Source of the DNA: Methanosuratincolales archaeon
GTDB lineage: Archaea; Thermoproteota; Methanomethylicia; Methanomethylicales; Methanomethylicaceae
Direction: 5' to 3'
DNA: 64,000 nt
Assembly: GCA_014361445.1 (NCBI GenBank)
Contig: JACIVQ010000001.1
Span: 10,174-74,173, forward strand
The translations under genes were made by a program, and so were the position numbers. The notes beneath the pieces were generated by a model that saw only the letters and a program-made list of their open reading frames with translations, did not search any database and was not told where the DNA came from. This document shows positions 10,217 to 62,262 of the stretch, in pieces (position 1 is the stretch's first letter; each line of letters starts with the position of its first letter).

Positions 10217-10224
10217 AAAAGAGG

Positions 10225-11604: not shown

Positions 11605-11653
11605 TATAAAGCCTCCAATATTAATATAGAAAAAGTGTTGTTTAAACGCTTGC

Positions 11654-12862
11654 CTATTTTGTGACTTTCTTCCATGTTATGCATCCAGGCACAGGGCATA
11701 GATGCGTACAGAGGGAGCATGCGTCGCACTTCTCCTCGTCGACCTCGGCGGCTTTTCCTTGCTCGAACTTTATCGCCTGGTACCCGCCATCGCGACATGC
11801 CACGTAGCAGAGACCGCACTTTATGCAAAGGTCCTTGTTGATGCTGGCAACGACCGTGTAGTCCTTGTTGAGCTTCGACCAAGCGGTCAGTTTGGGGAGG
11901 CTCTTCCCGATGATCTCGTTAACCGAGGAGAAGCCTTTGTCAGCAAGGTAGTTGGTGAGACCGTCAACGAAGTCGGAAATTATCCGGTAGCCCCTCCACA
12001 TCACCGCGGTGCAGACTTGGACGCTGCCTGCACCCACGAGGAGGTATTCAACAGCATCCTTCCAAGTAGTTATTCCACCTATCCCAGAGACGGGGATGTT
12101 AGTTGCCTGAGCTATCTGGGCGACGCACCTTAGTCCAATCGGCTTGACGCCTGGTCCCGATAGACCGCCGAAGGTGCTCATCCCGTCGACGGTGGGTATC
12201 GGCTCAAATGTATCTATGTTGATGCCTATTAGACCGAGTACAGTGTTTATGGCAGAGATGGCATCGGCTCCGGCTTCCTCTGCAGCCTTGGCGGTGTAGG
12301 CGATGTCTGTGACGTTCGGTGTTAGTTTCACCATTACAGGGACCGAGGATCCGCGCTTTGCTGCCTTTGTGAGCTTTTGGATGAGCTCGGTCCTTTGCCC
12401 GATGAAGGCGCCCATCCCCCGTTCAGGCATCCCGTGTGGGCAGCCGAAGTTCAGCTCAATCATATCCACGCCCGCCTCGCTCACGACCCTGGCAAGCTCC
12501 TCCCAGTCCTCCTCCTTGCACTCGGCCATGATGCTCCCTATGAGCGCCTTCTCGGGGAACTTTTTCTTGATCTCTTTGATCTCCTTCACCCATGTGCCGA
12601 CGGGCCTCTTTGAGACCTCTTCGATGTTTTCGAAGAGTATCATCTGCTTCGTCTCGAAGCCCATCACGCCAAACCTGTTCTTTAGATCGTAGACAGGGGT
12701 CTTGTCTGGCTTTATGGTCTTGGTGACAGCTCCAGCCCAACCAGCCTCGAATGCCCTCATTATCATCTCGCCAGTGCATGTAGGTGGCGCCGATGAGAGC
12801 ATGTATGGGTTCTCCAGCTCAAGGTTGCAGAATTTTACGGATATATCTGGTTTTGAAACCAT
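11654..12862 (-). CDS. preA: dihydropyrimidine dehydrogenase subunit PreA-like (DHODH-fold with C-terminal 2x[4Fe-4S] ferredoxin domain)
   Basis: Collinear with E. coli PreA ([23 protein letters not shown]...). C-terminal CIKCGLCYVACRDGG and CDACSLCTHLCPV ferredoxin motifs. 402 aa. Confidence 0.85.
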   Translation of the reverse strand: MVSKPDISVKFCNLELENPYMLSSAPPTCTGEMIMRAFEAGWAGAVTKTIKPDKTPVYDLKNRFGVMGFETKQMILFENIEEVSKRPVGTWVKEIKEIKKKFPEKALIGSIMAECKEEDWEELARVVSEAGVDMIELNFGCPHGMPERGMGAFIGQRTELIQKLTKAAKRGSSVPVMVKLTPNVTDIAYTAKAAEEAGADAISAINTVLGLIGINIDTFEPIPTVDGMSTFGGLSGPGVKPIGLRCVAQIAQATNIPVSGIGGITTWKDAVEYLLVGAGSVQVCTAVMWRGYRIISDFVDGLTNYLADKGFSSVNEIIGKSLPKLTAWSKLNKDYTVVASINKDLCIKCGLCYVACRDGGYQAIKFEQGKAAEVDEEKCDACSLCTHLCPVPGCITWKKVTK

Positions 12863-12883
12863 ATTTTCTCACTTCCATAACTA

Positions 12884-14245
12884 CTATTTCTTTGAACTCT
12901 TACCTCCGGAGAGGAACTTGTCAATGGCAGCTGCAGCCTTCTTACCCTCAGCCACAGCCTCAACGACGGTCTCGCCGCCGTTTACGGCGTCGCCGCCCGC
13001 AAATATGCCCTTTATGGATGTGGAGAAGTTCTCGTCCACAACGATCAGCCCTTTCTCTGTCTTGACGCCATAGGACTTTAGAAGGTCTTCGTCCGGCTTC
13101 TGCCCTATCGCAACTATAACCGAGTCCACATCCAGGCGGAACTCCGAGCCCTTTATGGACCTTACGCCCCTCCTCCCAGAGGAGTCTGGCTCGGTGAGCT
13201 CCATCTTAACGCACTCAATCGCTTTGACGCTCTTGTCTCCTATTATCCGGACCGGGGCTGTGAGTAAGAGGAACTCCACGCCCTCCTCCCTCGCTTGGTT
13301 CCTGCCGTAGGGTACTGCGGGCATCTCGGCGAAGGATCTCCTGTAGACGATGTAGACCCTTTCGGCACCGAGCCTCACAGAGGCACAGGCTGCGTCTATG
13401 GCGGTGTCTCCGCCGCCTATCACGGCGACCCGCTTTCCCTTGAGGTCGGGCGCCTTCCCCTCTCCCATCAACCATTTTGCCACAGATTGTAGGAATTCCT
13501 GTGCGGGGTAAACACCATTTAGCTCCTCGCCGGGTATCCCGAGCTTCTGGGACTTTGTTGCGCCCACGCCAACGAAGACAGCGTCATACTCCTTAAGAAG
13601 TGGCTTTAGGTCGGTAATTTTCCTGTTTGTGACGAAATTAATGCCATACTCCTTTATGAGATCGATCTCAGACTCGGGAACAGACCAGGGTGCCTTCCAA
13701 GGAAGGATGCCGTAGAGCAGAAGGCCTCCGGGTCTTGGGTTTGCATCGAAGACCGTGACGCTGTAGCCCATTCGGGCGAGCTCGTATGCTGCCGAGAGAC
13801 CGGCGGGACCAGCACCCACAACTGCAACCTTCTTGTCCTTGGATCGTGATTTCGGGAATTTCACGAGACCCTTGAGCTTCTCTTTCTCGTAGGCGAACCT
13901 CTGGAGCATAGATATAGCCACAGGCTCCTCGTTCAAGTTCCTCCTTACGCACTTGGACTCGCAGAGGCGCTCAACTGGACAGACGTAGCCGCATTCCCCT
14001 CCTAAGATGTTGCTCTCGCGTATGACTTTGGCAGCCCCATAGAAGTTTCCAGTTTTTATGCGGTATATGAACTCGGGGATGTTGATCCCAGCTGGGCAAG
14101 CCGAGATGCACGGAGCGTCGAAGCACATAAGGCACCTTGAGGCTTCGTACACAGCAAGCCTGTCGTCGAGGTTTGAGACGTATGGAGCGAAGCCAGAGAT
14201 CCTCTCATGCGGAGGAATAGTTTTAGTATGGACTCTACCTGACAT
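12884..14245 (-). CDS. preT: dihydropyrimidine dehydrogenase subunit PreT-like (GltD-like FAD/NAD(P) oxidoreductase with N-terminal Fe-S domain)
   Basis: EASRCLMCFDAPCISACPAG...ECGYVCP..LCESKC N-terminus, VAVVGAGPAGLSAAYELARMGYSVTVFD dinucleotide fold and C-terminal GGDTA. Its size matches PreT rather than the large YgfK/GltB proteins. Confidence 0.8.
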   Translation of the reverse strand: MSGRVHTKTIPPHERISGFAPYVSNLDDRLAVYEASRCLMCFDAPCISACPAGINIPEFIYRIKTGNFYGAAKVIRESNILGGECGYVCPVERLCESKCVRRNLNEEPVAISMLQRFAYEKEKLKGLVKFPKSRSKDKKVAVVGAGPAGLSAAYELARMGYSVTVFDANPRPGGLLLYGILPWKAPWSVPESEIDLIKEYGINFVTNRKITDLKPLLKEYDAVFVGVGATKSQKLGIPGEELNGVYPAQEFLQSVAKWLMGEGKAPDLKGKRVAVIGGGDTAIDAACASVRLGAERVYIVYRRSFAEMPAVPYGRNQAREEGVEFLLLTAPVRIIGDKSVKAIECVKMELTEPDSSGRRGVRSIKGSEFRLDVDSVIVAIGQKPDEDLLKSYGVKTEKGLIVVDENFSTSIKGIFAGGDAVNGGETVVEAVAEGKKAAAAIDKFLSGGKSSKK

Positions 14246-14311
14246 AGAACTCGCTCCTTAGAGGATTAACGATTAATAAGGGGTTTTAATTAAGGCTTTC
14301 GTGATAGAATT

Positions 14312-15001
14312 ATGAATTGTCCAAAGAGAATGGTCGTTAAGGGAATCGTGTTCGATCTTGACGGTACATTAGTAGACTCTATAGATTCTATTTGGAAGGC
14401 TTCTGAATATGTACTAAAGATTAACGGTTACCGCGGGATAGACCGCCAGGATGTGGTAGAGGCCATGGGCAAGACCATATTTGACTTATTTTTGAGGGTC
14501 GAGCCAGGTCTGAGTCATAAGGAGCAGCAGAAGCTATTCGAGGACTACAGGAGAGTCTATATGGATTTCATAGCGCATACGAGACTGATCCCCAGGGTTA
14601 AGGAAACCTTGGCAGTTTTGAGGGGGAGAAGGTTAAAGATGGCGGTCGTCACAACAAAGAGCAAGCAGAATGCTGAGAAGATCCTTTCGTTTTTTGGCAT
14701 AAGGGGCTTCTTTGATGTGGTTATAGGCTTCGAGGATGTGAAGGAGCATAAGCCTTCCATAGAGCCAATAATAAGGGCGGCAGAAGGGCTTAACCTCCAA
14801 GCCTCAGAGTTGGTTGTTGTCGGCGACACTCACATAGACGTCAAAGCTGGGAGGGAGGCAGGCGCATTAACAGTTGCGGTTAAAACTGGCGTGACGCCCC
14901 TGGAGAGGATTACGGCGGAGAGACCAGACTTTTTGATCGATGATGTCTCCAGTCTACCTGAGGTGTTGGAGCAGAATGGGCTCATCAGTATCGGGGACTG
15001 A
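14312..15001 (+). CDS. HAD-superfamily hydrolase (phosphatase, PGP/PpaX-like)
   Basis: DLDGTL motif I, S/T motif II, K and a DD motif near the C-terminus. 229 aa. Confidence 0.75.
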   Translation: MNCPKRMVVKGIVFDLDGTLVDSIDSIWKASEYVLKINGYRGIDRQDVVEAMGKTIFDLFLRVEPGLSHKEQQKLFEDYRRVYMDFIAHTRLIPRVKETLAVLRGRRLKMAVVTTKSKQNAEKILSFFGIRGFFDVVIGFEDVKEHKPSIEPIIRAAEGLNLQASELVVVGDTHIDVKAGREAGALTVAVKTGVTPLERITAERPDFLIDDVSSLPEVLEQNGLISIGD

Positions 15002-16280
15002 TGTTCTTTAGGATCTCGTCGAACACCTCAACAGCGGTGTCAATATGCTCACGGGTCAGAACTAATGGTGGCTCTATTCTTATGACGTTCCCCTCCAAAC
15101 CTCCGAGGCCCACAAGTATCTTTTTCTTCCACGCCTCTTGCAAGAATCTTACGGCTTCCTCCCTTGCTGGCACCTTTGTGGATCTCTCTTTAACGAGCTC
15201 GACCCCTAAGAAGAGACCGACGCCTCTCACGTCTCCTACAATCTCGTATCTCTCCTGCAGCGATTCCAGCCTGCGCTTGAAGTATGCGCCGTTCTCTTTT
15301 ACCTTATCCATGAGCCCACTTGTCAGCTCTTCCAGAACGGCCTCTGCGGCAGCGCATGCGAGAGCATTCCCGCCCAGCGTGGAGTAGTGCTCCCCTGGTC
15401 TGAGGGCAGAGTCGAGCTCTTCTCTGTAGATGGTCACACCGAGTGGAAGACCGTTTGCTATAGCCTTCGATGTGGTCATCACGTCTGGTACAACCCCATA
15501 GTGCTCAATCCCCCAAAGCTTGCCGGTCCGACCATTCCCAGACTGGACTTCGTCCGCAATGAAAAGTATGGAGTACCTGTCCAGCACCCGCTTAACCTCC
15601 TTAAAATAATCAGAGGGGGGTATGATCATGCCACCATTAGCTAGCATGGGTTCCGCTAAAAGTGCAGAGATAGAGTCCCCTCCAACCTCGCATTTAATTA
15701 CGTCTTCCATGTACTTTACGCAGGCGAATCCGCATTCAGGACAGCTTTTGTGGCCGAGCGGGCACCTGTAGCAATAAGGATCAGGCGCAAACACCACTGG
15801 CGCGAATGGACCAAGCCCAACCTTCCAGTTTGACTGCCCCAACGCACTCATGGCGTAAAACGTCCTGCCGTGAAAAGACCGGTGGAGTGCCATTATGTAG
15901 GGTCTTTTCTTGACGCGCTTAACGAGGGAGATTGCGGTCTCGTTTGCCTCTGATCCGCTATTCGTGAAGAAGGTCTTGGTGAGTGCGCCCCCGGGGGAGA
16001 GTTCGGAGAGCCTCTTTGCAAGTTTTGCCGTGTACTCCAAGTAGTATAGTGAAGAAGTGTGGAACAACTTTTGCATCTGAGCTTGAACTGCCTTGATTAC
16101 TCTTTGGTTCGACCATCCCACATTAACTATGGAGACGCCAGCGTATAGGTCAATATAGGCCTCCCCCTCGATAGAGTAAACGATGTCGTCAACAGCCCTG
16201 TCCGGGACAAAGGGGTAGTAATGCCTGTACATGCGCGAGAGGTATCGGTCGGAGAGGTCGATTACATCTTTAGGGTTCAT
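14985..16280 (-). CDS. class-III (omega) aminotransferase, PLP-dependent; candidate beta-alanine/4-aminobutyrate aminotransferase
   Basis: 431 aa. GSEANE..., the DEVQSG.GRTGK PLP-lysine region and TTSKAIANG. The beta-alanine role is inferred from the neighbouring pyrimidine-catabolism genes only. Confidence 0.8.
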   Translation of the reverse strand: MNPKDVIDLSDRYLSRMYRHYYPFVPDRAVDDIVYSIEGEAYIDLYAGVSIVNVGWSNQRVIKAVQAQMQKLFHTSSLYYLEYTAKLAKRLSELSPGGALTKTFFTNSGSEANETAISLVKRVKKRPYIMALHRSFHGRTFYAMSALGQSNWKVGLGPFAPVVFAPDPYCYRCPLGHKSCPECGFACVKYMEDVIKCEVGGDSISALLAEPMLANGGMIIPPSDYFKEVKRVLDRYSILFIADEVQSGNGRTGKLWGIEHYGVVPDVMTTSKAIANGLPLGVTIYREELDSALRPGEHYSTLGGNALACAAAEAVLEELTSGLMDKVKENGAYFKRRLESLQERYEIVGDVRGVGLFLGVELVKERSTKVPAREEAVRFLQEAWKKKILVGLGGLEGNVIRIEPPLVLTREHIDTAVEVFDEILKNISPRY

Positions 16281-32466: not shown

Positions 32467-34709
32467 TCATGGTTGTTTCAAGGAGGAATTCAGGAATGTT
32501 TCGATTTGGATGTGCTGGAATGGTTATTTTAATTTCATTGGTAATTCTAAGCTCAACATCATCGGGCGTCTTTTGCGCTGAGACAAACTTCAAGGTAGAG
32601 GATGTGAGTTGGAGGGCATTGAATATTGGTGTTGGAAATAGTACTTGTATTGTGCAGCTCAGGTATTACGGGGATAGCCCGTGTTCTAACGTGGATGGAA
32701 CCCTTGATGTCTCTCAGTTGAGCGAGAGCTACACCAGGGTATCAGACAAATATTCAGGGACTGTAGAGAATGGGGGTGCAGTTTATTTGGAGTTTGTTTT
32801 CGATGTTTCTTCTTCGTCTAAGGCAGGGTGGTACAAAGCCCCATTGACAGTAAATTACATGGTGGATGGCAGGGTCCTTTGGGAGAGCTTCGATTTGGTG
32901 TTGACGGTCAATGGGAACCCCGATCTCTCATGCGCTACCGGTGGAGAGAGGATTCTGAGAGGGTACATCAACGAGATTCCCATTATAATTAGGAATGATG
33001 GTGACGGGGTTGCTAGGAGGGTCAGGGTCACTGTGCAAAGCCAAGACGTTTATTTGACGATAATCGGTCCGAATGAATTCAGTGCAGACTTCCTTATGCC
33101 GAATGAAGAATGGGTCGTAGTAGTGAAGGCCTTCGCACAGCTGAGTATCCGCGATGGGAGCAGCATTGCACTCAATGTTAGATATGAAGACCAGGAAAAT
33201 GTGGGATATACGAAGACTACGACCATCGGTCTCAAAGTGGAAGATCCTGATAAGCCAAGCATGGTTGTAAGCGCAAACACCACGAAGATAAGCCCAGGTG
33301 TTACGAACGGCGTACTCCTTTCAATCTTAAATAGCGGAGGCAAGGAAGCGATGGATTTAACGATCAAGTTGACCCCCGCCTCAAATCAGCTGACCTTGGT
33401 TGGCAATAACACCTTTTCATTTCCAAATCTGGGTGCAGGAGAGGCATTGGATCTTCCGATATCACTGTACCTGGAGCCACAGACCTATGGAAGTCTTCCT
33501 CTCTATGTGACGATCAATTACAAAGACGATAGGAACGGCACGTACCAAGACTCGCTATCAATCGGTTTCCTAAGCGAGGAAGAGCCAGAGCCCAAGGTGG
33601 AGGTGATGGCGAAGAGGCTACAGCTCCAGCCAAACGCCATAAATTCCGTCACCATAATACTTGAGAACAGAGGGGAGAAGGCAGCGAAAGACCTCAGGAT
33701 CAATCTCTTCTCGCAGACCCCAGAGGTCGCAGTGGTGGTGGGAACTGGAGTAGAACATAGAGACTTTCTGGGGCCGAATGAGACTTGGGAGGTACAAAAG
33801 GAGATCTTCGTGCAGCCGAATGTCTATGGCGCGGTGCCACTTTATGTGCAGGTCCAGTATCAGGACGAGTTGAATAACAGGTACTCATTCACCTCGACCA
33901 TCGGTTTTGAAGTTAAGGGGACGCCATCCCTGGCAATATCCTCAGTCATATATAGCCCATCCCCAGTCTTCGCAGGGAACAGAGCGGTCAGGGCAAATTG
34001 CGTTGTGGTCAACCATGGCAATTACACGGCGCAGGACGTTAGTGTAACACTTGGAGAAATTGGCGGGGTTGTGAAGCCGTCTTATCCCGGGTCAGACCGT
34101 GTAAAGATACCGTTCTTAACCGTCGGAGGGAGTGTGAGCGTCCAATTTCTGCTTGATATTGATGAGAATGCAAAGCCAGGATACTACGAGATACCTGTAA
34201 GGATATCAACGAGTACCGAAAACATCTCGACTGTGATTCCGCTCACCCTATCGGAGAAGGCAAAGATTCTTGTCGACAAGATATATTTCGATAGGGAAGT
34301 CACTCCAGGAGCGAGGAATGTAAAGCTATTCGTCGAGATGCTGAACGTTGGTAATGTCACAGCTGAGGAGGTTAGAGTTTCCGTGATATCTGGATACATC
34401 ACCGGATCCACCACACAGCTCCTGGGTAACATGGCAAGCGGGACTAGGAGAGTGGTCGTCATGGAGGTTGATGTGGACAACAAGGTAAGCCCAGGCGAGT
34501 TTCCTGTAGACGTGGAGGTCTCTTGGAGCCAAGATGGGAGAAGCATGTCTGAGACCTCAACCAAGAGTCTGACAATTGGCGAGCCTGGGAAGGTCGAGAT
34601 CTGGGCTGTAGTAGGAGTTCTAGCGGTTCTGGTAGCAATTGTATTCATTTTCAGGAAGAAGGTAAAGGAGGTCAGCAAGTCATTTTTGTATAAGCTGAGA
34701 GGACGGTGA
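32463..34709 (+). CDS. large cell-surface protein with signal peptide, repeated CARDB/NEW3-like beta-sandwich domains and C-terminal TM anchor (COG1470-like)
   Basis: 748 aa. N-terminal hydrophobic segment, internal repeats (..NSGGKEAMDLTIKL.. / ..NRGEKAAKDLRINL.. / ..NVGNVTAEEVRVSV..), and a C-terminal IWAVVGVLAVLVAIVFIF + KK anchor. Its start is translationally coupled to the ABC-2 permease. Confidence 0.6.
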   Translation: MIMVVSRRNSGMFRFGCAGMVILISLVILSSTSSGVFCAETNFKVEDVSWRALNIGVGNSTCIVQLRYYGDSPCSNVDGTLDVSQLSESYTRVSDKYSGTVENGGAVYLEFVFDVSSSSKAGWYKAPLTVNYMVDGRVLWESFDLVLTVNGNPDLSCATGGERILRGYINEIPIIIRNDGDGVARRVRVTVQSQDVYLTIIGPNEFSADFLMPNEEWVVVVKAFAQLSIRDGSSIALNVRYEDQENVGYTKTTTIGLKVEDPDKPSMVVSANTTKISPGVTNGVLLSILNSGGKEAMDLTIKLTPASNQLTLVGNNTFSFPNLGAGEALDLPISLYLEPQTYGSLPLYVTINYKDDRNGTYQDSLSIGFLSEEEPEPKVEVMAKRLQLQPNAINSVTIILENRGEKAAKDLRINLFSQTPEVAVVVGTGVEHRDFLGPNETWEVQKEIFVQPNVYGAVPLYVQVQYQDELNNRYSFTSTIGFEVKGTPSLAISSVIYSPSPVFAGNRAVRANCVVVNHGNYTAQDVSVTLGEIGGVVKPSYPGSDRVKIPFLTVGGSVSVQFLLDIDENAKPGYYEIPVRISTSTENISTVIPLTLSEKAKILVDKIYFDREVTPGARNVKLFVEMLNVGNVTAEEVRVSVISGYITGSTTQLLGNMASGTRRVVVMEVDVDNKVSPGEFPVDVEVSWSQDGRSMSETSTKSLTIGEPGKVEIWAVVGVLAVLVAIVFIFRKKVKEVSKSFLYKLRGR

Positions 34710-34766
34710 ATGAAGAAAAAGGATGAGGAAAAAGAATGAAAAACAAAAAATAAAAATAAAAAAAGA

Positions 34767-36085: not shown

Positions 36086-36589
36086 TTAGAGATCTAAAGG
36101 ATAAACATCTTCGATCCTCTGGGAGAACGGTTTCTTCTTATGAATCATAATCTCCTTTGTTCTTATCAGGGGGTGAGTATAGTCTACCTCTGGGCGACTC
36201 ATTATTATCTCGTCGGCCAACCTCTCTAAGCTGTAGACGTCTTTCTCTTCGATTACTACGACCATATGATGGAATCCTGTACAGAGCCAGACGCTCTCGA
36301 CTTGCGGGTGTTTTAATAACTCCTCGGCCAACCTCTCTCTCGTCCCTGGCGGTACTCCTGCTTTAAGGTTGAAAGCTATATCTGAGACTTGCCTGCCAAG
36401 TTTGTAGTAGTTTATATTACATGTTGGGTCTATGATCTTCTCATCAATTAACCTATTTACTCTCGCTGCTACGGCTGGGACGCTCAGCCCAAGTCTATTG
36501 GAGATTTCACTATAGGGCGTCCTCGCATTGGCAATCAAAATTCTTATTATTTCTTTATCTATTTTGTCAACTAAGCTCTTTCTGCCCAT
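36086..36589 (-). CDS. lrp: Lrp/AsnC-family transcriptional regulator
   Basis: N-terminal HTH (IDKEIIRILIANARTPYSEISNRLGLSVPAVAARVNRL) plus a C-terminal RAM domain. Confidence 0.85.
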   Translation of the reverse strand: MGRKSLVDKIDKEIIRILIANARTPYSEISNRLGLSVPAVAARVNRLIDEKIIDPTCNINYYKLGRQVSDIAFNLKAGVPPGTRERLAEELLKHPQVESVWLCTGFHHMVVVIEEKDVYSLERLADEIIMSRPEVDYTHPLIRTKEIMIHKKKPFSQRIEDVYPLDL

Positions 36590-36671
36590 GCCCTATATAA
36601 TTCTCTCTCTACCTTAATAAGTTTAAGCGAAATGATTTATATAAACAAAAAAGGGGAAAAAAATAAGGTTG

Positions 36672-37943
36672 TTATAGGTAGCGGTTAAAGGGTTTTTCCT
36701 TTCCATCCCTTACAATTTTTATTTTTGCTGGTTCAGTTTTTATTATCACCCTTCCAGATTTGACTACGAGTAGCCTAGGCGCCATGGTCCTTATCGCTTC
36801 AAGTTCACTGAAAGCATCCATCACCACTAGATCCGCATCTTTCCCTTCTTCCACCCCGTACCTCTCGGATATACCTAAGGCTCTGGCCGGATTGTATGTT
36901 ATCAGGTTCAAACTATCTAAGAGTTCCCTGTAACCTGTCAATTGCCCAACATGTACGCCCATAAATAGAGCATGAAGCATATCGCCATTTCCCAGAGGAT
37001 ACCATGGGTCCATTATGCAGTCGTGCCCTAATGCGACATTGATGCCGTGTTGCAATAGCTCCTTAATTCGGGTTAAACCCCTCCTTTTCGGATAAGTATC
37101 AAACCTCCCTTGGAGGTGAATGTTTATCAGCGGATTTGCTACGATCGTTATATCTGCTTTTTTTAACAAACCAAAGAGCTTGAAGGCATATGCATTATTG
37201 TAGGAGTGCATGGCTGTGGTGTGCCCTGCGGTCACTTTCCCTTGATATCCCTCTCGAATAGTTTGGGCGGCGACGACCTCAAGAAACCTTGACTGCTCAT
37301 CGTCCGTTTCGTCAACATGACCATCGACTTTCTTTCCGTATTTTTTGGCAAGCTTGAATGCCAGCTCAACTGATCTCACGCCGTCTTCTCTTGTATATTC
37401 TATATGGGGTATTATTCCTACATTGTCAGCGCCTAACTCTAAAGCCCTTTCTAACAATTCTTGGTTGCCTGGATCTGTGAGGATGCCGTCCTGTGGGAAT
37501 GCCGTGACCTCTAGATCGATTATATCAGCACACTCTTTCTTAAGTTCTAATAATCCCTTGAGGGTTGAGAGGGTTGGCTCCGTCACGTCTGCATGAGTCC
37601 TAACCCTTGTAGTCCCATTGGAGGCTATAAGCTCAAGAGCCCTCATGGCTCTAGCCTTCATCTCGTCAATATTCAGTTTTTTCTTATACTCCCCCCAGAT
37701 GGCTATGCCTTCCAGAAGCGTTCCACTCTCATTGTATCTTGGAGTACCAAGTGTTAGTACAGAATCGAGATGTATGTGCATGTCTGTGAATGTTGGAAGA
37801 ACCAACCTACCCCCAGCATCAAACTCTTCATTCCCCCTTTCTTTGATCTCTTTTTTAATTGTTGTAATTTTGCCTTCGCTGACGCCTATGTCGACGGTTC
37901 CGTCCTTCCCCATCAGTTTTGCTCTCCTAATAATAAGGTCCAT
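36672..37943 (-). CDS. codA: cytosine deaminase (amidohydrolase)
   Basis: Near-collinear with E. coli CodA: HIHLD, RTHVDV, GHVDE.DDEQSRF, HTTAMHSYN, VANPLINIHLQGRFDTYPKRRG and GHDCIMDPWYPLG. Confidence 0.9.
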   Translation of the reverse strand: MDLIIRRAKLMGKDGTVDIGVSEGKITTIKKEIKERGNEEFDAGGRLVLPTFTDMHIHLDSVLTLGTPRYNESGTLLEGIAIWGEYKKKLNIDEMKARAMRALELIASNGTTRVRTHADVTEPTLSTLKGLLELKKECADIIDLEVTAFPQDGILTDPGNQELLERALELGADNVGIIPHIEYTREDGVRSVELAFKLAKKYGKKVDGHVDETDDEQSRFLEVVAAQTIREGYQGKVTAGHTTAMHSYNNAYAFKLFGLLKKADITIVANPLINIHLQGRFDTYPKRRGLTRIKELLQHGINVALGHDCIMDPWYPLGNGDMLHALFMGVHVGQLTGYRELLDSLNLITYNPARALGISERYGVEEGKDADLVVMDAFSELEAIRTMAPRLLVVKSGRVIIKTEPAKIKIVRDGKEKPFNRYL

Positions 37944-38042
37944 TTACTCACCTCTTCCTATATATTTTAAATAAACTATCATATAACCTTTAATTTTTTA
38001 GGCAACATATATATATTTCTTTTATTATTTAAGTAGAATTAG

Positions 38043-39479
38043 GTGCTTTGTATGAGTAGTTCAGGGATAAGCCCAGAACTTTTCCCTACCAAGCCTGAAC
38101 AGAGGATCGTCGGAACTGTCGGTTATACTCTTATGATACTCTCCATGACTATCACAACCTCCATATTCTTCTTGGGCTGGATCTCTCAAGTGCTCGGCCT
38201 CTCATTAGCCCAGACCATGGTTGCCGCTCTAATTGGCAATGGCGTTGTCGCGGCGGTCATGTATCTAAATGGTTATGTAGGCGTTAAAGAAGGCATCCCG
38301 TTTCCAATTCAACTGAGAACCGCCTTCGGAACGAAGGGATCAATCCTTCCCATGGTAGTGCGAATGATAGTCTCCCTCTTCTGGTATGGTATTGATGGTT
38401 TCATAGCAGCATGGGCAATGACTGAAATGGCTCTTATTGTGGCAGGTTGGCCAGCAGATAGAATAATAAGCGAGGGTCTGGCCTACACCCCCATAACCTT
38501 TGTCTTGTATTTGATAGCCGTAGCCGCCATAGGTACTGGGAAAATTAAGTCGATAAAATGGATCGATTCCATTGCCGGTCCTCTCCTGTTTATCTTCTTC
38601 GCCTGGTTTGTTATCTACATGACTGGGATACCCGAGTTCTCAGGGAAGGTTATACCCATATGGGAGGGCGGCGCCCCATGGTTCGGGTCAGAGTTCTTTT
38701 GGGCTACGGCTATTCAGACGGCATGGTGGGGTACTATCGCCCTAAACGTCTCAGACATCTGCCGCTACAACAAATCAGTAAAATCTTTGCCTGTCGGCCA
38801 CGTGGTAGGACTCATAATACCCCAAATAGTCGGCTCTGCAATAGGCTTCACTGCCACATACCTGGCTGGCGGGAACCTCAGCCCAATAGATATAATCGCA
38901 AAATATTCGCCGATGCCTGCTTTGGGGGCGCTCGGTTTATTCTTTGCCTTCTTGGCTACATCCACCACCAACCTTACAGGCGACATACCTGCAACTACAA
39001 ATGCAGTTATAAGAGTCTTCAGGCTTAGCTGGAACAAAGCGCTCATAATAGCTACAATCATCGCATTCTTCATAGGTCCATGGTGGTATGTCCAAAATTC
39101 CATAGGCATGGCGTACCAACTTCTCAACTTCAACTGGTACTACAGTATGTTCTTGGGTCCGATAGCCGGGGTGATGGTGGTTGACTACTGGGTTGTTAGG
39201 AAAAAGAGAATAATTGTTGAGGAATTATACAAGGAACAAGGTATCTACTATTATAGAGGCGGAGTTCTCTGGGCTGGCGTTGGCTCATTCATACTTGGAA
39301 TTGTAGGTGAATATATTGCAAGCCTCTTCCAAGGTGGTTTCTACTACGCCTTTGGGATTCCATTACCTGGACTAGAGCTTGCATGGTACTACGGTTTCAT
39401 CATATCAGGCGTAATTTACTACATATGGGCTACTGTGAATAAAAGTGAAGTTCTGGTGGAGAACAAGCTCCACCAATAA
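38043..39479 (+). CDS. NCS1-family nucleobase:cation symporter (cytosine/uracil/hydantoin permease-like)
   Basis: 478 aa, ~12 predicted TM helices, with size and topology typical of NCS1. Divergently arranged with codA. Confidence 0.65.
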   Translation: MLCMSSSGISPELFPTKPEQRIVGTVGYTLMILSMTITTSIFFLGWISQVLGLSLAQTMVAALIGNGVVAAVMYLNGYVGVKEGIPFPIQLRTAFGTKGSILPMVVRMIVSLFWYGIDGFIAAWAMTEMALIVAGWPADRIISEGLAYTPITFVLYLIAVAAIGTGKIKSIKWIDSIAGPLLFIFFAWFVIYMTGIPEFSGKVIPIWEGGAPWFGSEFFWATAIQTAWWGTIALNVSDICRYNKSVKSLPVGHVVGLIIPQIVGSAIGFTATYLAGGNLSPIDIIAKYSPMPALGALGLFFAFLATSTTNLTGDIPATTNAVIRVFRLSWNKALIIATIIAFFIGPWWYVQNSIGMAYQLLNFNWYYSMFLGPIAGVMVVDYWVVRKKRIIVEELYKEQGIYYYRGGVLWAGVGSFILGIVGEYIASLFQGGFYYAFGIPLPGLELAWYYGFIISGVIYYIWATVNKSEVLVENKLHQ

Positions 39480-40356
39480 TCTATTTTTTTATTTTGAGTG
39501 GTGAAAACAAAAATAAAATTAAAATACCACTCACGCAATTCATAACTAACAGTTTGACACTCTAGCTTCCACTTCTATCCCCAACCCCTCTCCTTTCCTA
39601 TTCCATTTCCACTCCTACTTCCACTCCTAATATGACCACGACTCTAATACAAATCACACTTAATTCAAATCATTATCTCATAGAGCGCTCACTCTTATTG
39701 TCACCATTTATCCTGTAACTTATACTCATAATCATACCTGCATTAGTGTCCATGCCAGCGTTTGCATAAATGTTTACCCTCGTCAAGGAACCTCCGCGTG
39801 AGGAAGAAAAGTAAGAGGGCGGCGGACATATATAGAAGGCCAGCGGGCTGTGAACCATCGCCTTGAAGGCGCGGAAGAGGAACAGTAGGGGATCATTATG
39901 AAGGCGCCGAGGGGGCTTACGTGTTCCCGAAGATCAGGGCGGAGAGAGTGGAGCGTCTCGTAATCGGCAATTTGAAAACGCGAATATCGAGGGTATGGGG
40001 AGCAAGAGTATCAGGAAGATCGCTGTGGCCATCCTCCCGCCCTCGAGGGGCATGTTCTGGTATAGGGGCAGGGTCGCCTCGGGGTATAGAGCGCCTATGG
40101 CGTATGTGATCGCGCGGTCTATGAACAGTGCCAAGAGGAACGTAATTCCGGAGCGCATGCCCCCAAACCTTCAACCAACCGTTCCGACCCGTAAGATCAC
40201 CCAAAGAGGTTCGTGGCTTTAGCCGCGAGGGGCTTCTACCGTGCCCATCCACTATATTTTTTCCATTCAATTTTATAAACTCGTCATATTATGAGAGTAG
40301 ATTGGAGGAGAAAATGAGGGGCACGAAACATAAGATCGATACAGGGGTGTGCCAGC

Positions 40357-40752
40357 GTGGGCATAATCTATGAGAACCTTAGAAAGGTAGGTTTTGGAGG
40401 GCATAGGTGGTGCGAGATTTACGAGTTTATTGACACGGGCTGCGCCGCTGGCTGCACTTTTATGGTAGAGATAACTTTGAAGTGGAAAGAGCCCATCACG
40501 GACAAGGAGAGGGCGGAAGAGATTAGATCTCTCAGAGAGGGAATAAGCGAGCTGGAGGGAAGGCTCGTCGATCTTAAGTCGATAGTTAAGCCCGACTTCA
40601 AAGCCCTTCAGAGAGCCGTATCCTCAACGAAGACCGGAACCCGCGAGCACGAAGAGGCCCTTCGAAAGCTTAAGGGGGCGCACAGGCGATGGGCGGAGCT
40701 CAAACGGATGATCCAAGAAAACCAGCAAATAAAAAACAGGTCGAGGGGATGA
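40357..40752 (+). CDS. hypothetical protein (possibly the N-terminal part of a frameshifted gene continuing in 40689-41222)
   Basis: 131 aa ORF. It overlaps the next ORF by 64 bp across an A6 run. Confidence 0.3.
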   Translation: MGIIYENLRKVGFGGHRWCEIYEFIDTGCAAGCTFMVEITLKWKEPITDKERAEEIRSLREGISELEGRLVDLKSIVKPDFKALQRAVSSTKTGTREHEEALRKLKGAHRRWAELKRMIQENQQIKNRSRG

Positions 40753-41222
40753 GGGCGAGGCTTAACATGCTTGAGGGGGGCTCGGAAGCCCTCAAAACGA
40801 GAGGCAAACATCTAATCACGAGGTGCTTCTTCTGGGAGGATGGGGAGGACGAGGAAGCCATTAATGATTTTGTGGAAAGGTTCATCAGCGATGTGGAATT
40901 CCGGCGGCAGAGCATCGAGGGCAACGCCGACTGGTGCCACATCAACAGGATCTACGAGGCGGCTGAGGAAGTGGTCTGGAGGTTCTACTCCAATCTCCCA
41001 CACTTCCTCGGATATACTTTAGGTGATAGGAAGACCGAAAAGGAACACAGGGAAGCCTACGCCAAATTCGAGATGTACTGCAAAAGTGTTTATAAGTACA
41101 TCAAACAGAACATAAACGCCTTAATGGGAAATCCGGATTACCAAGAAGCCCTCCTCTGTGGAAGGAATGGCCTTGAGCGATTCGTCAAAGAACACATCCT
41201 GCCAAAGGTCGAGAGAATGTGA
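40689..41222 (+). CDS. hypothetical protein
   Basis: 177 aa ORF with protein-like composition. No family recognised. Confidence 0.35.
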   Translation: MGGAQTDDPRKPANKKQVEGMRARLNMLEGGSEALKTRGKHLITRCFFWEDGEDEEAINDFVERFISDVEFRRQSIEGNADWCHINRIYEAAEEVVWRFYSNLPHFLGYTLGDRKTEKEHREAYAKFEMYCKSVYKYIKQNINALMGNPDYQEALLCGRNGLERFVKEHILPKVERM

Positions 41223-41320
41223 GCTACTCCATGACTCAGGCTTATAGCCGTGGGTTTTCCGCTAAAAATGGGAGAGAACGCAGCCACAACCGTAATAGGC
41301 TGATCAGAAAGGTTGGCTAT

Positions 41321-41578
41321 ATGAAATATACAAAGCAAGCGAAAACCAGAGCAGCTGAAAGGGGTATAACTGAGGACATGATTTTGGAGGCGATATTGCA
41401 ACCGTCCCAGACATATTATGACTTGAGCACTGGAGCAACAATAGCCTTCAAGAAGCTTAATGGAAAGCATCTTTTAGTAGCATACTCTAGAGAGGATAAG
41501 GAAATCAGGATTGTGACAACTTTTATAACATCAAATGCCGAAGAAATAATTGACAGAAAACCGAAGAGCAAAACATGA
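41321..41578 (+). CDS. DUF4258-family putative toxin
   Basis: MKYTKQAKTRAAERGITEDMILEAILQPSQ...GKHLLVAYSREDKEIRIVTTF matches the DUF4258 pattern (HA.ER..ERGI.....E.L......NG....V.Y.......I.VIT.Y). The ORF-track start at 41219 is probably too far upstream. Confidence 0.55.
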   Translation: MKYTKQAKTRAAERGITEDMILEAILQPSQTYYDLSTGATIAFKKLNGKHLLVAYSREDKEIRIVTTFITSNAEEIIDRKPKSKT

Positions 41579-41589
41579 GTGAGGATTAA

Positions 41590-41811
41590 GTGAAAGTGGA
41601 ATATGACAGAGAATCAGACATACTATACATAAAGTTCAAAGAGACGGAAATAGCAGACACCAAAATGTTAAGCGAAGACGCCTACATAGACCTGGACAAA
41701 GATGGAAACCTCGTTGGCATAGAAATATGGAAAGCCTCCCAAAACGCCATACTCCCAATATCTAAGGACATAGCCGAAAAACTAAAACTGATTTTGGAAA
41801 GCCCAGCCTAA
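41590..41811 (+). CDS. DUF2283-family protein (partner of DUF4258; putative antitoxin)
   Basis: MKVEYDRESDILYIKF...DLDKDGNLVGIEIW is the DUF2283 signature. 73 aa. Confidence 0.6.
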   Translation: MKVEYDRESDILYIKFKETEIADTKMLSEDAYIDLDKDGNLVGIEIWKASQNAILPISKDIAEKLKLILESPA

Positions 41812-59787: not shown

Positions 59788-60242
59788 CAGCAACACCAAA
59801 GAGACTAAAATTTTTAATGTTATAAAACAATTTTGGTAGATCCATAATGATTTATAATATATCGAGATTATCCAGAGTTGATACTCTCCACAACTAAAGG
59901 CAGGGTTTCTGGACGTTCCGGTGATGAGCAGGCTCACATTCAGTCTCGTGTGGGCAAGTAGCCTAGGAATGACTTTCCGTAGCCTTCATTAAGAGATCCG
60001 TTATGAGATCCGTTGATGTATATTTATTTATTTTTGGTAATAATTAAACCACGTGATTGTACTAGCGGGGGATTATTCATTATGGATCATTGATGACCGA
60101 AATTGTAAAACCTATTGTAAAACCGCTCGCTCAAAGTTTCTATCATTTGTATTAAATTTTCATTTTCACATTTCTGCTGTTCAAGGTTTTAACACTTCAA
60201 CGGATGAAAACTGGGATTTCTCGCCCTATAGAGAATAATATG

Positions 60243-60518
60243 TCATCTCAAGATGGTGAATTCTTTGAATTCACCCTTTGGCATATCCCAGTTTATCTTC
60301 AAGTTCTCAACGGAGGCACCAGGAGGGCCTATTCGAACCTCCTCAATTAGTTTAAGTAGAGAGTCCTTTTCCCCTTCCGCCACGATCTCGACGCTCCCAT
60401 TGTTTAGGTTCTGGACATACCCAACAAGCCCGAGCTTCCTTGCTATTCTCAGTGTGAAGTATCTAAAGCCCACTCCTTGGACTATACCATAAACCCTTAT
60501 CTGTGCACGGGCGTGCAA
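60243..60518 (-). CDS. acyP: acylphosphatase
   Basis: VYGIVQGVGFRYFT and GYVQNLNNGSVEIVAEG signatures. 91 aa. Confidence 0.85.
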   Translation of the reverse strand: MHARAQIRVYGIVQGVGFRYFTLRIARKLGLVGYVQNLNNGSVEIVAEGEKDSLLKLIEEVRIGPPGASVENLKINWDMPKGEFKEFTILR

Positions 60519-60675
60519 AAGAGTTTACCTCGACAGAATTTTTTATAAAGCGGATATATAAAAAAGTTAAGAAAAATCATTATATTTATTGAATGAGCCG
60601 GGTTGCTAATTCACGACTTCCTGAGGGATCCTCCTTGGGAGGTTTTGATTTAAGATAAAAAATAAAGGTAGGAAG

Positions 60676-62262
60676 TTATGCGGGGATATTTCCGTGGCGC
60701 TTGGGAGGGCGTGGTTGTATCTCGCGCTTAGTGATCAAAGCCTCTAGCGCTTTGATTAGCATCGGTCGAGTTTCCTTTGGTAAGATAACGGCGTCGACGT
60801 ATCCGAGGTTGGCTGCTACGTAGGGGTTAGCGAATTTGTTCCTGTATTCTGCCACAAGCCTATTGGTTATCTCTTTGACCTCCTCTGGCGTCTTTGCCTT
60901 CATCAGCTCGTTCCTGTGGATGATCTCAACTGCACCCTCTGGCCCCATGACTGCGATCTCTGCGGTCGGCCATGCGAAGACCACATCAGCACCGAGGTGC
61001 CTGCTGCACATTGCAATGTAACCGCCACCATAAGCCTTTCTCATTATCACGGTGAGCTTTGGAACTGTGGCCTCTGAATACGCGTAAATGACCTTTGCGC
61101 CGTGCCTTATCACACCACCATGCTCCTGCTTTGTGCCAGGAAGGTATCCAGGAACGTCCACGAAAGTCACGAGAGGTATGTTGAAGGCATCACATGTCCT
61201 AACAAACCTCGCAATCTTGTCTGAAGAGTCGATGTCTAGGCACCCGGCATAAACCAACGGCTGGTTTGCAACCACCCCAACCGACCTGCCATTCAATCTG
61301 GCAAAGCCAACAACAGCATTCGGAGCAAACTGCGCGTGAACCTCAAAGAATGAACCTTTGTCAAAGACGTGATTGATAACGTCGTGGACATCGTATGGCT
61401 TCTTTGGATCTGCAGGTACGACATCGTTTAGCTCCTCGTCCATCCTGTCAGGAGGGTCGGCACACTCGAGGATTGGAGGGTCGTCCATGTTATTAGACGG
61501 GAGATAGCTGAGAAGCTGCTTTATCTGCTTTATGCACTCCTCGTCATTGTCTGCAGCAAAGTGAGCTACTCCGCTCAGTTTCGCATGCGCATCGGCACCA
61601 CCCAAGGTCTCAAATGTTACATCTTCACCAATCGCAGCCTTTACAACTTTTGGACCGGTTATGAACATGTAGCTCGTCTTGCGAACCATAAATATGAAGT
61701 CGGCGAGTGCCGGGGAATAGACCGCGCCTCCCGCGCATGGACCCATGATGGCTATTATTTGAGGAATGACTCCCGATGCCATGACGTTCCTGTAAAAGAT
61801 CTCCCCGTAGCCTGCCAGCGAGTTTATGCCCTCCTGTATCCTCGCGCCTCCAGAGTCGTTTAGTCCAATGAGGGGGGCGCCAGCCTTCAGTGCCATATCT
61901 TGAATTTTTGCGATCTTTTTGGCGTGCATCTCGCTCAGCGAGCCGCCCACAAAAGTGAAGTCCTGCGAGTATACGAAGACAGTCCTACCGTTTATCGTAC
62001 CGTAACCTGTTACAACGGCGTCTCCCAGGACGCGTTTCTTGTCCATATCGAAGTCATAGCACCTGTGTACCACAAACTGGTCGACCTCGACGAAGCTGCC
62101 TGGGTCAAGGAGTTTCTCTATCCTCTCCCTCGCGGTGAGCTTTCCAGCCTTGTGCTGCTTCTCTATGGCCTCGGTCCCGCCACCAAGTTTTGCCTTCTCT
62201 TTAAGCTCGTTTAATTCCTTGAATTTATCAACCAATGATGTAGCCATAATATTACACCCCAT
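60676..62262 (-). CDS. pccB: acyl-CoA (acetyl-/propionyl-CoA) carboxylase, carboxyltransferase subunit
   Basis: 528 aa, a two-domain crotonase-fold CT typical of PccB/AccD6-type enzymes. Confidence 0.9.

What the first reader, a model, noticed from the sequence alone, without database searches (positions are those of the whole stretch)
39480..40350. ~0.9 kb anomalous noncoding patch: polypyrimidine tract followed by a GC-rich segment with ORFs open in several frames
39541-39612 is almost pure C/T, with a recurring ttccact motif. 39780-40250 is markedly GC-richer than its surroundings and contains overlapping Arg-rich pseudo-ORFs on both strands plus a 10-bp palindrome ccctcgaggg. No convincing protein is encoded, other than a dubious 74-aa two-TM ORF at 39934-40158.

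In thermophile genomes, GC-rich islands of this kind are often structured RNAs. A segment ggcgcggaagaggaacagtagg loosely resembles the SRP-RNA helix-8 GGAA-tetraloop region. The patch could also be a relic of foreign DNA.
Basis: seen in the sequence. Interest (0 to 1): 0.55.

Follow-up and report, generated by a model that had tools for sequence, protein, structure and literature searches.

The report
Orphan spacer with decayed small ORF
The odd 0.9-kb patch is real as a compositional anomaly, but it shows no sign of being a structured RNA; it is most likely lineage-specific filler DNA holding a small, possibly decaying membrane-protein gene plus the control region of the neighbouring orphan operon, which is ordinary.

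Summary
The window comes from a Candidatus Methanomethyliales MAG. Positions 39480-40356 lie between an NCS1 permease gene and a four-gene operon (two ORFans, then DUF4258 and DUF2283).

The composition described is largely present. GC is 57.3% (99.4th percentile) and TTCCACT occurs three times. "Almost pure C/T" is overstated: 74% at the stated coordinates, 82-85% at best.

The RNA reading fails. Rfam gives nothing (no SRP or RNase P match even at E<=10), there are no tRNA or C/D-box motifs, and the GC block folds no better than shuffles (z -0.65 and +0.34).

No protein or DNA relative was found in any database searched. All five public copies are identical, so covariation cannot be tested.

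One positive signal is codon-like three-base periodicity over the 74-codon minus-strand ORF (p about 0.0005 to 0.002). That frame stays open for 165 codons with a single TGA. Codon usage is atypical and the strand is only weakly resolved.

At the right edge, a plus-strand-specific 86-nt hairpin (z -4.4) covers a TATA-like box and the Shine-Dalgarno and ATG of a 19-codon uORF. It ranks 4th of about 6,400 windows, within the tail that coding sequence also reaches.

Verdict: orphan, probably decaying coding DNA plus promoter and terminator sequence. Low interest.

The parts
39484..39495 (+). Oligo-T run (TTTTTTTATTTT) 5 nt after the TAA stop (39477-39479) of the NCS1 permease gene. Probable archaeal terminator of that gene.
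   Evidence: Sequence read. Permease identified by Pfam PF02133, E=3.5e-47. Terminator role is inferred from the general knowledge that archaeal termination occurs at oligo-T.
39496..39532 (.). Small hairpin: GAGTGGT, then a 23-nt A-rich loop, then ACCACTC. On the minus strand the loop reads as T-runs, a possible terminator for minus-strand transcripts.
   Evidence: Sequence. The only Rfam 'match' here is snoR74 at E=2.7, 21 bits against a gathering score of 44, which is chance. Local MFE z is about -2.5.
39557..39628 (+). Pyrimidine-rich low-complexity tract (82% C/T). TTCCACT at 39567, 39607 and 39619; 12-nt tandem duplication TTCCACTCCTAC at 39607-39629.
   Evidence: Not an ORB-type origin repeat: no match with up to 2 mismatches to the dyad TTCCANTGGAAA in the tract.
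39780..40250 (.). GC-rich block (57.3% GC), purine-rich on the plus strand, open in four reading frames.
   Evidence: RNA fold z is -0.65 on the minus strand and +0.34 on the plus strand.
39934..40158 (-). 74-codon ORF predicted as two hydrophobic helices. This is the only segment with codon-like three-base periodicity (strongest from about 39970 to 40150). Candidate live small membrane-protein gene, or the intact N-terminal stub of a dead gene.
   Evidence: - Period-3 chi-square 22.1: p=0.002 by shuffling, p=0.0005 against simulated ORFs of at least 70 codons.
- The periodicity stops at about 40150-40160, next to the ATG at 40158.
- Sense-versus-antisense codon score is 0.06, weakly favouring minus.
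- Codon and Markov scores lie at or below the lower edge of real genes.
- AlphaFold2 single-sequence model: two helices, pLDDT 69.
- No homologues.
39676..39933 (-). 86-codon open continuation in the same frame as the 74-codon ORF, directly after its TGA stop. Possible dead 3' part of an ancestral gene of about 160 codons.
   Evidence: The minus frame has 1 stop in 165 codons, against 6-10 in the other frames. P(any of six frames has at most 1 stop) = 0.037 under a block-shuffle null, on an interval chosen after the fact. The Markov score is highest of the six frames at 39640-39850 but only 0.06-0.10 bits per codon. No period-3 signal at 39795-39929.
39995..40222 (+). 75-codon basic ORF antisense to the 74-codon ORF, sharing its wobble phase. 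Rival reading of the same periodicity.
   Evidence: Called as a gene on one short public contig (SRR11866715_57999) but not on the longer ones. GC1 is lower than GC2 by 0.10, outside the range of real gene chunks.
40205..40237 (+). 13-bp GC-rich hairpin with a GGG bulge and 3 G-U pairs.
40240..40325 (+). Long imperfect hairpin or palindrome (35 pairs, 4 of them G-U). The 5' arm holds a T6 run and the TATA-like box. The 3' arm holds the Shine-Dalgarno and ATG of the uORF.
   Evidence: - 40195-40360 plus strand: MFE -57.2 kcal/mol, z -4.37, 0 of 200 shuffles as stable. Minus strand: z -0.40.
- Ranks 4th of 6,390 (100-nt) and 4th of 6,382 (166-nt) windows by GC-adjusted MFE. Its z of -2.7 to -3.2 is similar to several windows inside coding regions.
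40271..40279 (.). TATA-like box TTTTATAAA. Likely promoter of the downstream ORFan/DUF4258/DUF2283 operon and possibly, in the opposite direction, of the minus-strand ORF.
   Evidence: Sequence. Resembles the AT-rich boxes upstream of other genes in the window. Function is inferred.
40301..40373 (+). Shine-Dalgarno ATTGGAGG (GGAGGAG at 40304-40310) followed by a 19-codon uORF (ATG 40314 to TGA 40373). The uORF overlaps the GTG start (40357) of the 131-aa ORFan, which has its own GGGGTG at 40344-40349.
   Evidence: The same ATTGGAGG 8-mer precedes two other genes in the window.

Best explanation
The patch is lineage-specific spacer DNA inside a small accessory islet, not an RNA gene. The islet consists of the patch, two ORFan genes and a DUF4258/DUF2283 pair. 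It sits between a pyrimidine-salvage permease gene and the aromatic amino-acid operon.

The GC-rich core derives from protein-coding sequence on the minus strand. It was a small membrane protein of about 160 codons. Its first 74 codons (two hydrophobic helices) still form an intact ORF, and the rest is cut off by an in-frame TGA and has lost its coding signature. If the ORF is still expressed, transcription would start near 40249 from the shared AT-rich TATA region. It would make a 74-residue two-helix membrane peptide of unknown role.

The two AT-rich ends are ordinary gene-boundary DNA. The left end holds oligo-T terminators for the convergent permease gene and for any minus-strand transcript, plus a slippage-prone pyrimidine tract. 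The right end holds the promoter, Shine-Dalgarno and a short uORF of the orphan operon, embedded in an imperfect palindrome.

Shown here: the composition, the periodicity, the open frame, and the absence of RNA-family, structural and homology signals. Inferred: the coding strand, pseudogene versus live gene, and the promoter and terminator roles.
For: - No RNA family, tRNA or C/D-box match.
- No excess fold stability of the GC block on either strand.
- Period-3 composition over 39934-40158 is as strong as the median real-gene chunk: chi-square 22.1 against a median of 19.3, p=0.002 and p=0.0005.
- The periodic zone ends at the minus-strand ATG.
- The same minus frame has 1 stop in 165 codons against 6-10 in the other frames, p about 0.04, and is the best-scoring frame in two separate stretches.
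- The sense/antisense codon contrast leans to minus.
- The neighbouring 131-aa and 157-aa genes score as normal coding sequence yet are ORFans among 5.8 billion proteins, so orphan coding DNA is the local norm.
- More distant relatives carrying the permease lack the whole islet.
Against: - Codon-usage and 3-periodic Markov scores of the 74-codon ORF fall below all 178 real-gene chunks: Markov -0.065, and codon LLR at the 3rd percentile of true chunks.
- Purine at codon position 1 is 0.47, below the minimum of real chunks.
- The plus-strand 75-codon ORF shares the wobble phase and cannot be excluded.
- No homologue exists in any frame, so a translated search does not confirm a degraded CDS.
- The Shine-Dalgarno match before the ATG at 40158 is mediocre (GAAGGT, 8 nt upstream).
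- The open-frame statistic was computed on an interval chosen after the fact.
- All five public copies are identical, so there is no selection signal either way.
Confidence: 0.5

Rival explanations
1. Functionless spacer. The GC block is random or foreign leftover DNA that never encoded anything in its present frames. The periodicity and open frames are statistical accidents, and only the terminators and promoter at the two ends matter.
For: - No homologues in any frame.
- No ORF reaches the score range of real genes.
- An ORF of at least 70 codons is expected in 51% of random sequences of this composition.
- Public gene callers leave the interval empty on the long contigs.
Against: - The period-3 signal over the pre-specified ORF has p=0.0005 to 0.002.
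- Four ORFs of at least 60 codons occur in 1% of simulations.
- One frame has a single stop in 165 codons, p about 0.04.
Confidence: 0.25
2. The coding (or formerly coding) strand is plus. The 75-codon basic ORF (39995-40222) is the first cistron of the downstream operon, and the two hairpins (40205-40325) form an intercistronic structure that masks the next Shine-Dalgarno and ATG.
For: - It shares the wobble phase with the minus ORF.
- The block has plus-strand purine excess like the operon downstream.
- It is called as a gene on one public contig.
- The hairpins are plus-strand-specific, z -4.37 against -0.40.
- Hairpin 1 spans its TAG stop.
Against: - GC1 minus GC2 is -0.10, beyond the minimum (-0.09) of real gene chunks.
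- The sense/antisense contrast would be -0.06, seen in fewer than 1% of real chunks.
- Periodicity stops at about 40150, some 70 nt before this ORF ends.
- The GAGGGT motif abuts the ATG with no spacer.
- The Markov score is -0.06.
Confidence: 0.12
3. Novel non-coding RNA or long structured 5' leader on the plus strand (roughly 39860-40330). It would belong to no Rfam family and would act through the Shine-Dalgarno-sequestering hairpin.
For: - The 40195-40360 plus-strand fold is strand-specific and beats 200 of 200 shuffles.
- The predicted structure pairs both Shine-Dalgarno sequences (40304-40310 and 40345-40349).
- There is a TATA-like ATATATAG at 39829-39836.
Against: - The GC block as a whole has no excess stability.
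- The hairpin's GC-adjusted z (-2.7 to -3.2) is matched by windows inside coding genes.
- The best promoter candidate for the operon lies inside the hairpin, so its 5' arm would not be transcribed from it.
- No covariation test is possible, and there is no Rfam or C/D-box signal.
Confidence: 0.08
4. Remnant of a small mobile element (MITE or IS end) bounded by the inverted repeat 39606-39636 / 40283-40313.
For: A 31-nt inverted repeat with 74% complementarity brackets the GC block. The islet is absent from relatives.
Against: - The repeat is not significant: 23 or more of 31 matches arise in 4-9% of shuffles.
- The best-matching part lies at the inner ends rather than the outer ends.
- There are no flanking direct repeats and no other copy in the 64 kb.
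- No transposase-like translation in any frame.
- No match in phage, plasmid or viral collections.
Confidence: 0.04

Closest known systems
Orphan (ORFan) small membrane-protein genes and their pseudogene remnants in accessory genomic islets of archaea
   Same: No detectable homologues. Short hydrophobic two-helix product. Location in a strain-specific insert next to other ORFans and a toxin-antitoxin-type pair. Residual codon periodicity with atypical codon usage and an in-frame stop.
   Different: Expression is untested, the coding strand is only weakly resolved, and no mobile-element hallmark (integrase, tRNA target, direct repeats) marks the islet.
Archaeal SRP RNA (7S RNA; Rfam archaeal SRP model)
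   Same: Only a short GGAA-containing purine-rich string (39868-39889) inside a GC-rich stretch.
   Different: No covariance-model match even at E<=10. No excess folding stability. 57% GC is within the range of coding sequence in this 49.5% GC window.
Archaeal replication-origin ORB / mini-ORB repeats
   Same: Three copies of TTCCAC(T), which equals one half of the mini-ORB dyad TTCCAGTGGAA (PMC1904270), in an intergenic region next to AT-rich DNA.
   Different: The dyad's second half (TGGAA) is missing. No match with up to 2 mismatches in the tract, and window-wide counts are below chance: 17 against 23 expected. None of the 20 larger proteins of the window scanned against Pfam is an Orc1/Cdc6 initiator, and none flanks the patch. 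The repeats are not in inverted orientation around an unwinding element.
Type I toxin-antitoxin modules (small hydrophobic toxin plus overlapping antisense or structured RNA)
   Same: A 74-residue hydrophobic two-helix ORF with an antisense open frame and a strongly folding region in its upstream DNA, next to a type II-like pair.
   Different: There is no evidence for any transcript. The ORF is longer than most type I toxins. The stable fold lies on the opposite strand from the ORF's 5' UTR. The resemblance is a lead from general knowledge and was not tested.

Membership tests
SRP RNA (archaeal) | Covariance-model match to the Rfam SRP family (helices 5, 6 and 8 with a GNAR tetraloop) at or near the gathering score | tested here: not met
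   No family at gathering score in the 64 kb. No SRP match at E<=10 in 39000-41000 or 39700-40360.
Any structured RNA gene | Thermodynamic stability beyond composition-matched shuffles on one strand | tested here: not met
   GC block 39780-40250: z -0.65 (minus) and +0.34 (plus). Only the promoter-proximal 40195-40360 plus strand is stable, z -4.37, and windows in coding sequence match it.
Any structured RNA gene | Compensatory base-pair substitutions across homologues | not testable with these tools
   No homologous region was found. All five public copies are 100% identical over the patch, and loci from relatives lack it.
C/D-box sRNA | C box RUGAUGA and D box CUGA 38-72 nt apart, with internal C'/D' boxes | tested here: not met
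   No candidate on either strand of 39480-40360.
Protein-coding gene | Three-base compositional periodicity in a stop-free frame | tested here: met
   39934-40158: chi-square 22.1, p=0.002 and p=0.0005 against simulated ORFs.
Protein-coding gene | Codon usage and Markov coding score within the range of the genome's genes | tested here: not met
   Markov score -0.065 bits per codon, below all 178 real chunks. Codon LLR 0.058, the 3rd percentile of true chunks. The synonymous-usage score is uninformative.
Protein-coding gene | Detectable homologues or a domain match | tested here: not met
   Pfam, PHROGs, PADLOC and NCBIfam give nothing. HMMER against 1.84 billion representatives gives only two repetitive junk hits. 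A six-frame composite against 5.8 billion proteins gives nothing at E<=10. The one metagenome hit is an off-frame chance match.
Archaeal replication origin | Clustered dyad ORB or mini-ORB repeats flanking an AT-rich unwinding element, next to an orc1/cdc6 (or whiP) gene | tested here: not met
   No dyad matches in the tract. No initiator gene among the window proteins scanned. Consensus taken from PMC1904270 and PMC4010727.
MITE / IS remnant | Significant terminal inverted repeats, target-site duplication, and multiple genomic copies | tested here: not met
   The inverted repeat has p=0.04-0.09. No flanking direct repeats. No second copy in the window. Copies elsewhere in the genome could not be checked.
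Type I toxin-antitoxin | Small hydrophobic toxin ORF plus a cis-encoded antisense or overlapping regulatory RNA | not testable with these tools
   A hydrophobic two-helix ORF is present. The existence of any RNA cannot be tested without transcript data.

The most novel reading that the evidence does not exclude
The patch is a live regulatory module. A lineage-specific 74-residue two-helix membrane peptide is encoded on the minus strand. It is overlapped by a plus-strand transcript whose 3' part folds into the 40205-40325 hairpins, which mask the Shine-Dalgarno and ATG of the downstream orphan/DUF4258-DUF2283 operon. That would be an archaeal type-I-toxin-like or riboregulated small-peptide system coupled to a type II-like pair.
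Probability: 0.05. Interest if true: 0.6.

Novelty: new member of a known kind. Interest (0 to 1): 0.12.

Why it matters
It matters little. The practical value is negative: in a genome of about 50% GC, a 57% GC island is not a reliable flag for structured RNA. This one should not be annotated as SRP-like or as any ncRNA.

It adds one more example of orphan, probably decaying coding DNA in an accessory islet of an uncultured Methanomethylicia lineage. If the small membrane ORF or the Shine-Dalgarno-masking hairpin proved functional, it would be a modest addition to the sparse catalogue of archaeal small proteins and translational control elements.

Tried and rejected
RNA searches:
- Rfam at gathering score on 64 kb, and at E<=10 on 2 kb and 0.66 kb, gave only chance hits: snoR74, plant and animal miRNA precursors, lncRNA fragments.
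- ARAGORN found nothing.
- A C/D-box motif scan found nothing.

Replication-origin idea, raised by the TTCCAC repeats:
- Rejected. There is no dyad, no initiator gene, and GC skew simply follows gene orientation.

Mobile-element idea:
- Rejected. The inverted repeat is not significant and there are no direct repeats or second copies.

Homology searches:
- The 74-aa ORF against 1.84 billion representatives gave two repetitive junk proteins.
- A six-frame composite gave nothing.
- The 131-aa and 157-aa neighbours matched only themselves.
- Viral contigs searched with three queries gave nothing.
- Metagenome contigs gave one chance off-frame hit inside a 2,192-aa kinase gene.
- Phage and plasmid DNA gave nothing.
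- tblastx and blastn against 17 loci carrying the permease in relatives gave nothing.

Structure prediction:
- AlphaFold2 of the 74-aa ORF gave two helices at pLDDT 69, which is not discriminating.
- AlphaFold2 of the 157-aa neighbour gave pLDDT 61, and Foldseek against PDB found nothing at E<=0.001.

Technical failures and limits:
- One full-window shuffle-based z-scan timed out. It was replaced by GC-adjusted MFE ranking.
- The five public copies of the locus are identical over the patch. The only differences in one assembly are a SNP at 39426 and a scaffold gap at 41285. No population variation is therefore available.

Full report
**Source and setting**

The 131-aa protein encoded just right of the patch is identical to a GenBank entry named 'MAG: hypothetical protein H5T34_00295 [Candidatus Methanomethyliales bacterium]'. 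The same DNA occurs on public contigs from SRR11866715, SRR11866717 and SRR11866725, and on JAULTE010000084.1. All of these are 100% identical to the window across the patch. The only differences in one assembly are a SNP at 39426 and a scaffold gap at 41285.

The patch (39480-40356) lies between two gene sets:
- An NCS1 cytosine/purine permease gene at 38043-39479 on the plus strand (PF02133, E=3.5e-47).
- A tightly packed plus-strand operon: a 131-aa ORFan (40357-40752), a 157-aa ORFan (40749-41222), DUF4258 (41219-41578) and DUF2283 (41590-41811).

Beyond the operon, the aromatic amino-acid genes run on the minus strand. Gene callers leave the 878-nt interval empty on the long contigs.

**Observation check**

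GC of 39780-40250 is 57.3% against a window mean of 49.5%, which is the 99.4th percentile of 470-nt windows. Coding regions elsewhere in the window reach 59%.

The pyrimidine tract is weaker than described. It is 73.6% C/T at the stated coordinates, 82% for the best 72 nt (39557-39628) and 85% for the best 60 nt. A stronger purine tract (86%) lies at 34692. TTCCACT occurs three times, and two of those copies form a 12-nt tandem duplication.

The 10-bp palindrome and the GGAA-containing string are present but unremarkable. Four ORFs of at least 60 codons lie inside the block, which only 1% of Markov simulations reproduce. A single ORF of at least 70 codons arises in 51% of simulations.

**Is it a structured RNA?**

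No Rfam family reaches its gathering score in the 64 kb. With permissive filters and E<=10, the only matches in 39000-41000 and 39700-40360 are chance hits to eukaryotic snoRNA, miRNA and lncRNA models. There is no SRP or RNase P match. There are no tRNA or tmRNA genes and no C/D-box candidates.

The GC block folds no better than dinucleotide shuffles: z -0.65 on the minus strand and +0.34 on the plus strand. Covariation cannot be tested, because no homologous region exists in any collection I could search. In a genome of about 50% GC, 57% GC is within the coding range, so the 'GC island means RNA' heuristic has little force here.

**Is it coding?**

Searches found no relative in any frame:
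- Pfam, PHROGs, PADLOC and NCBIfam give nothing.
- A full HMMER scan of the 74-aa ORF against 1.84 billion representatives returned only two repetitive junk proteins.
- A six-frame composite query against 5.8 billion proteins gave nothing at E<=10.
- Viral, metagenome, phage and plasmid scans gave nothing real.

Codon-usage and 3-periodic Markov scores place every ORF of the patch outside the range of real genes. The two ORFan neighbours score as normal genes.

One positive signal remains. The span of the 74-codon minus ORF shows three-base compositional periodicity as strong as a typical real-gene chunk. The chi-square is 22.1 against a real-gene median of 19.3. The p-value is 0.002 by shuffling and 0.0005 against simulated ORFs of similar length.

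The periodic zone runs from about 39970 to 40150 and ends at the minus-strand ATG at 40158. The same minus frame has a single stop (TGA, 39934-39936) in 165 codons, against 6-10 stops in the other frames. The probability is about 0.04, on an interval chosen after the fact.

The antisense 75-codon plus ORF shares the wobble phase, and one short public contig calls it as a gene. Two measures disfavour it. Its GC1-versus-GC2 relationship is outside the real-gene range, and the sense/antisense codon contrast leans to minus. The strand call still leans only weakly to minus. AlphaFold2 models the 74-aa product as two helices at pLDDT 69, which does not discriminate.

**The edges of the patch**

On the left, an oligo-T run follows the permease stop codon. 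A small hairpin with an A-rich loop follows that. These look like convergent terminators, which is an inference.

On the right, the plus strand of 40195-40360 folds at -57.2 kcal/mol, z -4.37, better than 200 of 200 shuffles. The minus strand does not (z -0.40). The fold has two parts:
- A 13-bp hairpin at 40205-40237.
- A 35-pair hairpin at 40240-40325. Its 5' arm carries a T6 run and a TATA-like TTTTATAAA (40271-40279). Its 3' arm carries the Shine-Dalgarno ATTGGAGG and the ATG (40314) of a 19-codon uORF. That uORF overlaps the GTG start of the 131-aa gene.

The same ATTGGAGG 8-mer precedes two other genes in the window.

Ranked against all windows by GC-adjusted MFE, this fold is 4th of about 6,400. 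Its z of -2.7 to -3.2 is matched by windows inside coding genes. If the TATA box is the operon promoter, the 5' arm would not be transcribed from it. I therefore record the hairpin as notable but unproven.

**Rejected leads**

- The TTCCAC repeats equal one half of the archaeal mini-ORB dyad (TTCCAGTGGAACT; invariant TTCC and GAA; PMC1904270). The second half is absent, and no match with up to 2 mismatches falls in the tract. Window-wide counts are below chance. No Orc1/Cdc6 gene was found among the window proteins scanned.
- The 31-nt inverted repeat bracketing the block is not significant, p=0.04-0.09. There are no flanking direct repeats and no second copy in the window.
- Loci from 17 relatives that carry the permease (60-67% protein identity) contain nothing similar to the patch or the ORFan genes. 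In two Methanomethylicota/Thermoproteota relatives the permease is followed directly by convergent genes. The whole islet is therefore lineage-specific.

**Conclusion**

The best-supported reading (confidence about 0.5) is orphan DNA of coding origin. It would be a small minus-strand membrane-protein gene, either still alive as a 74-codon ORF or, more likely, decaying. It is flanked by ordinary terminator and promoter sequence.

The rivals are:
- Pure spacer (0.25).
- The plus-strand ORF reading (0.12).
- A new leader or ncRNA acting through the hairpin (0.08).
- A mobile-element remnant (0.04).

None of these would surprise a specialist, so interest is low. Transcript mapping and sister-genome comparison would settle the matter.

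Noticed in passing
window 40301-40373: A 19-codon uORF (ATG 40314) sits behind the genome-typical Shine-Dalgarno ATTGGAGG and overlaps the GTG start (40357) of the 131-aa ORFan in another frame. Removing one base after the ATG would fuse them into a 145-codon gene. This is either a frameshifted 5' end or a leader peptide.
   Followed up: partly
window 60201-60300: This window ranks 1st (plus strand) and 6th (minus strand) of 6,390 by GC-adjusted MFE. It contains nested palindromes (GGTGAATTC/GAATTCACC, AAACTGGGAT/ATCCCAGTTT) in the 59937-60676 gap between long ORFs. No Rfam match.
   Followed up: partly
window 34692-34763: An 86% purine tract on the plus strand. It has a stronger strand bias than the pyrimidine tract in the finding.
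   Followed up: no
window 9089-16280 and 36086-39479: A cluster of pyrimidine catabolism and salvage-type genes: dihydropyrimidine-dehydrogenase-like pair, amidohydrolases, class-III aminotransferase, cytosine-deaminase-like amidohydrolase, NCS1 permease and an Lrp/AsnC regulator. The closest permease relatives found are equally similar in Methanomethylicota and Desulfurococcales MAGs (60-67% identity).
   Followed up: partly
window 40357-41222: The two operon genes (131 aa and 157 aa) score as normal coding sequence but have no relatives among 5.8 billion proteins. They also have no family, viral or solved-structure match, so they are true ORFans placed ahead of a DUF4258/DUF2283 pair.
   Followed up: yes
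L024 (SRR11866715_57999) 308-535 = window 39995-40222: The public gene call for the plus-strand 75-aa ORF appears only on a 1.2-kb contig and not on the longer contigs of identical sequence. This shows how context-dependent the call is.
   Followed up: yes
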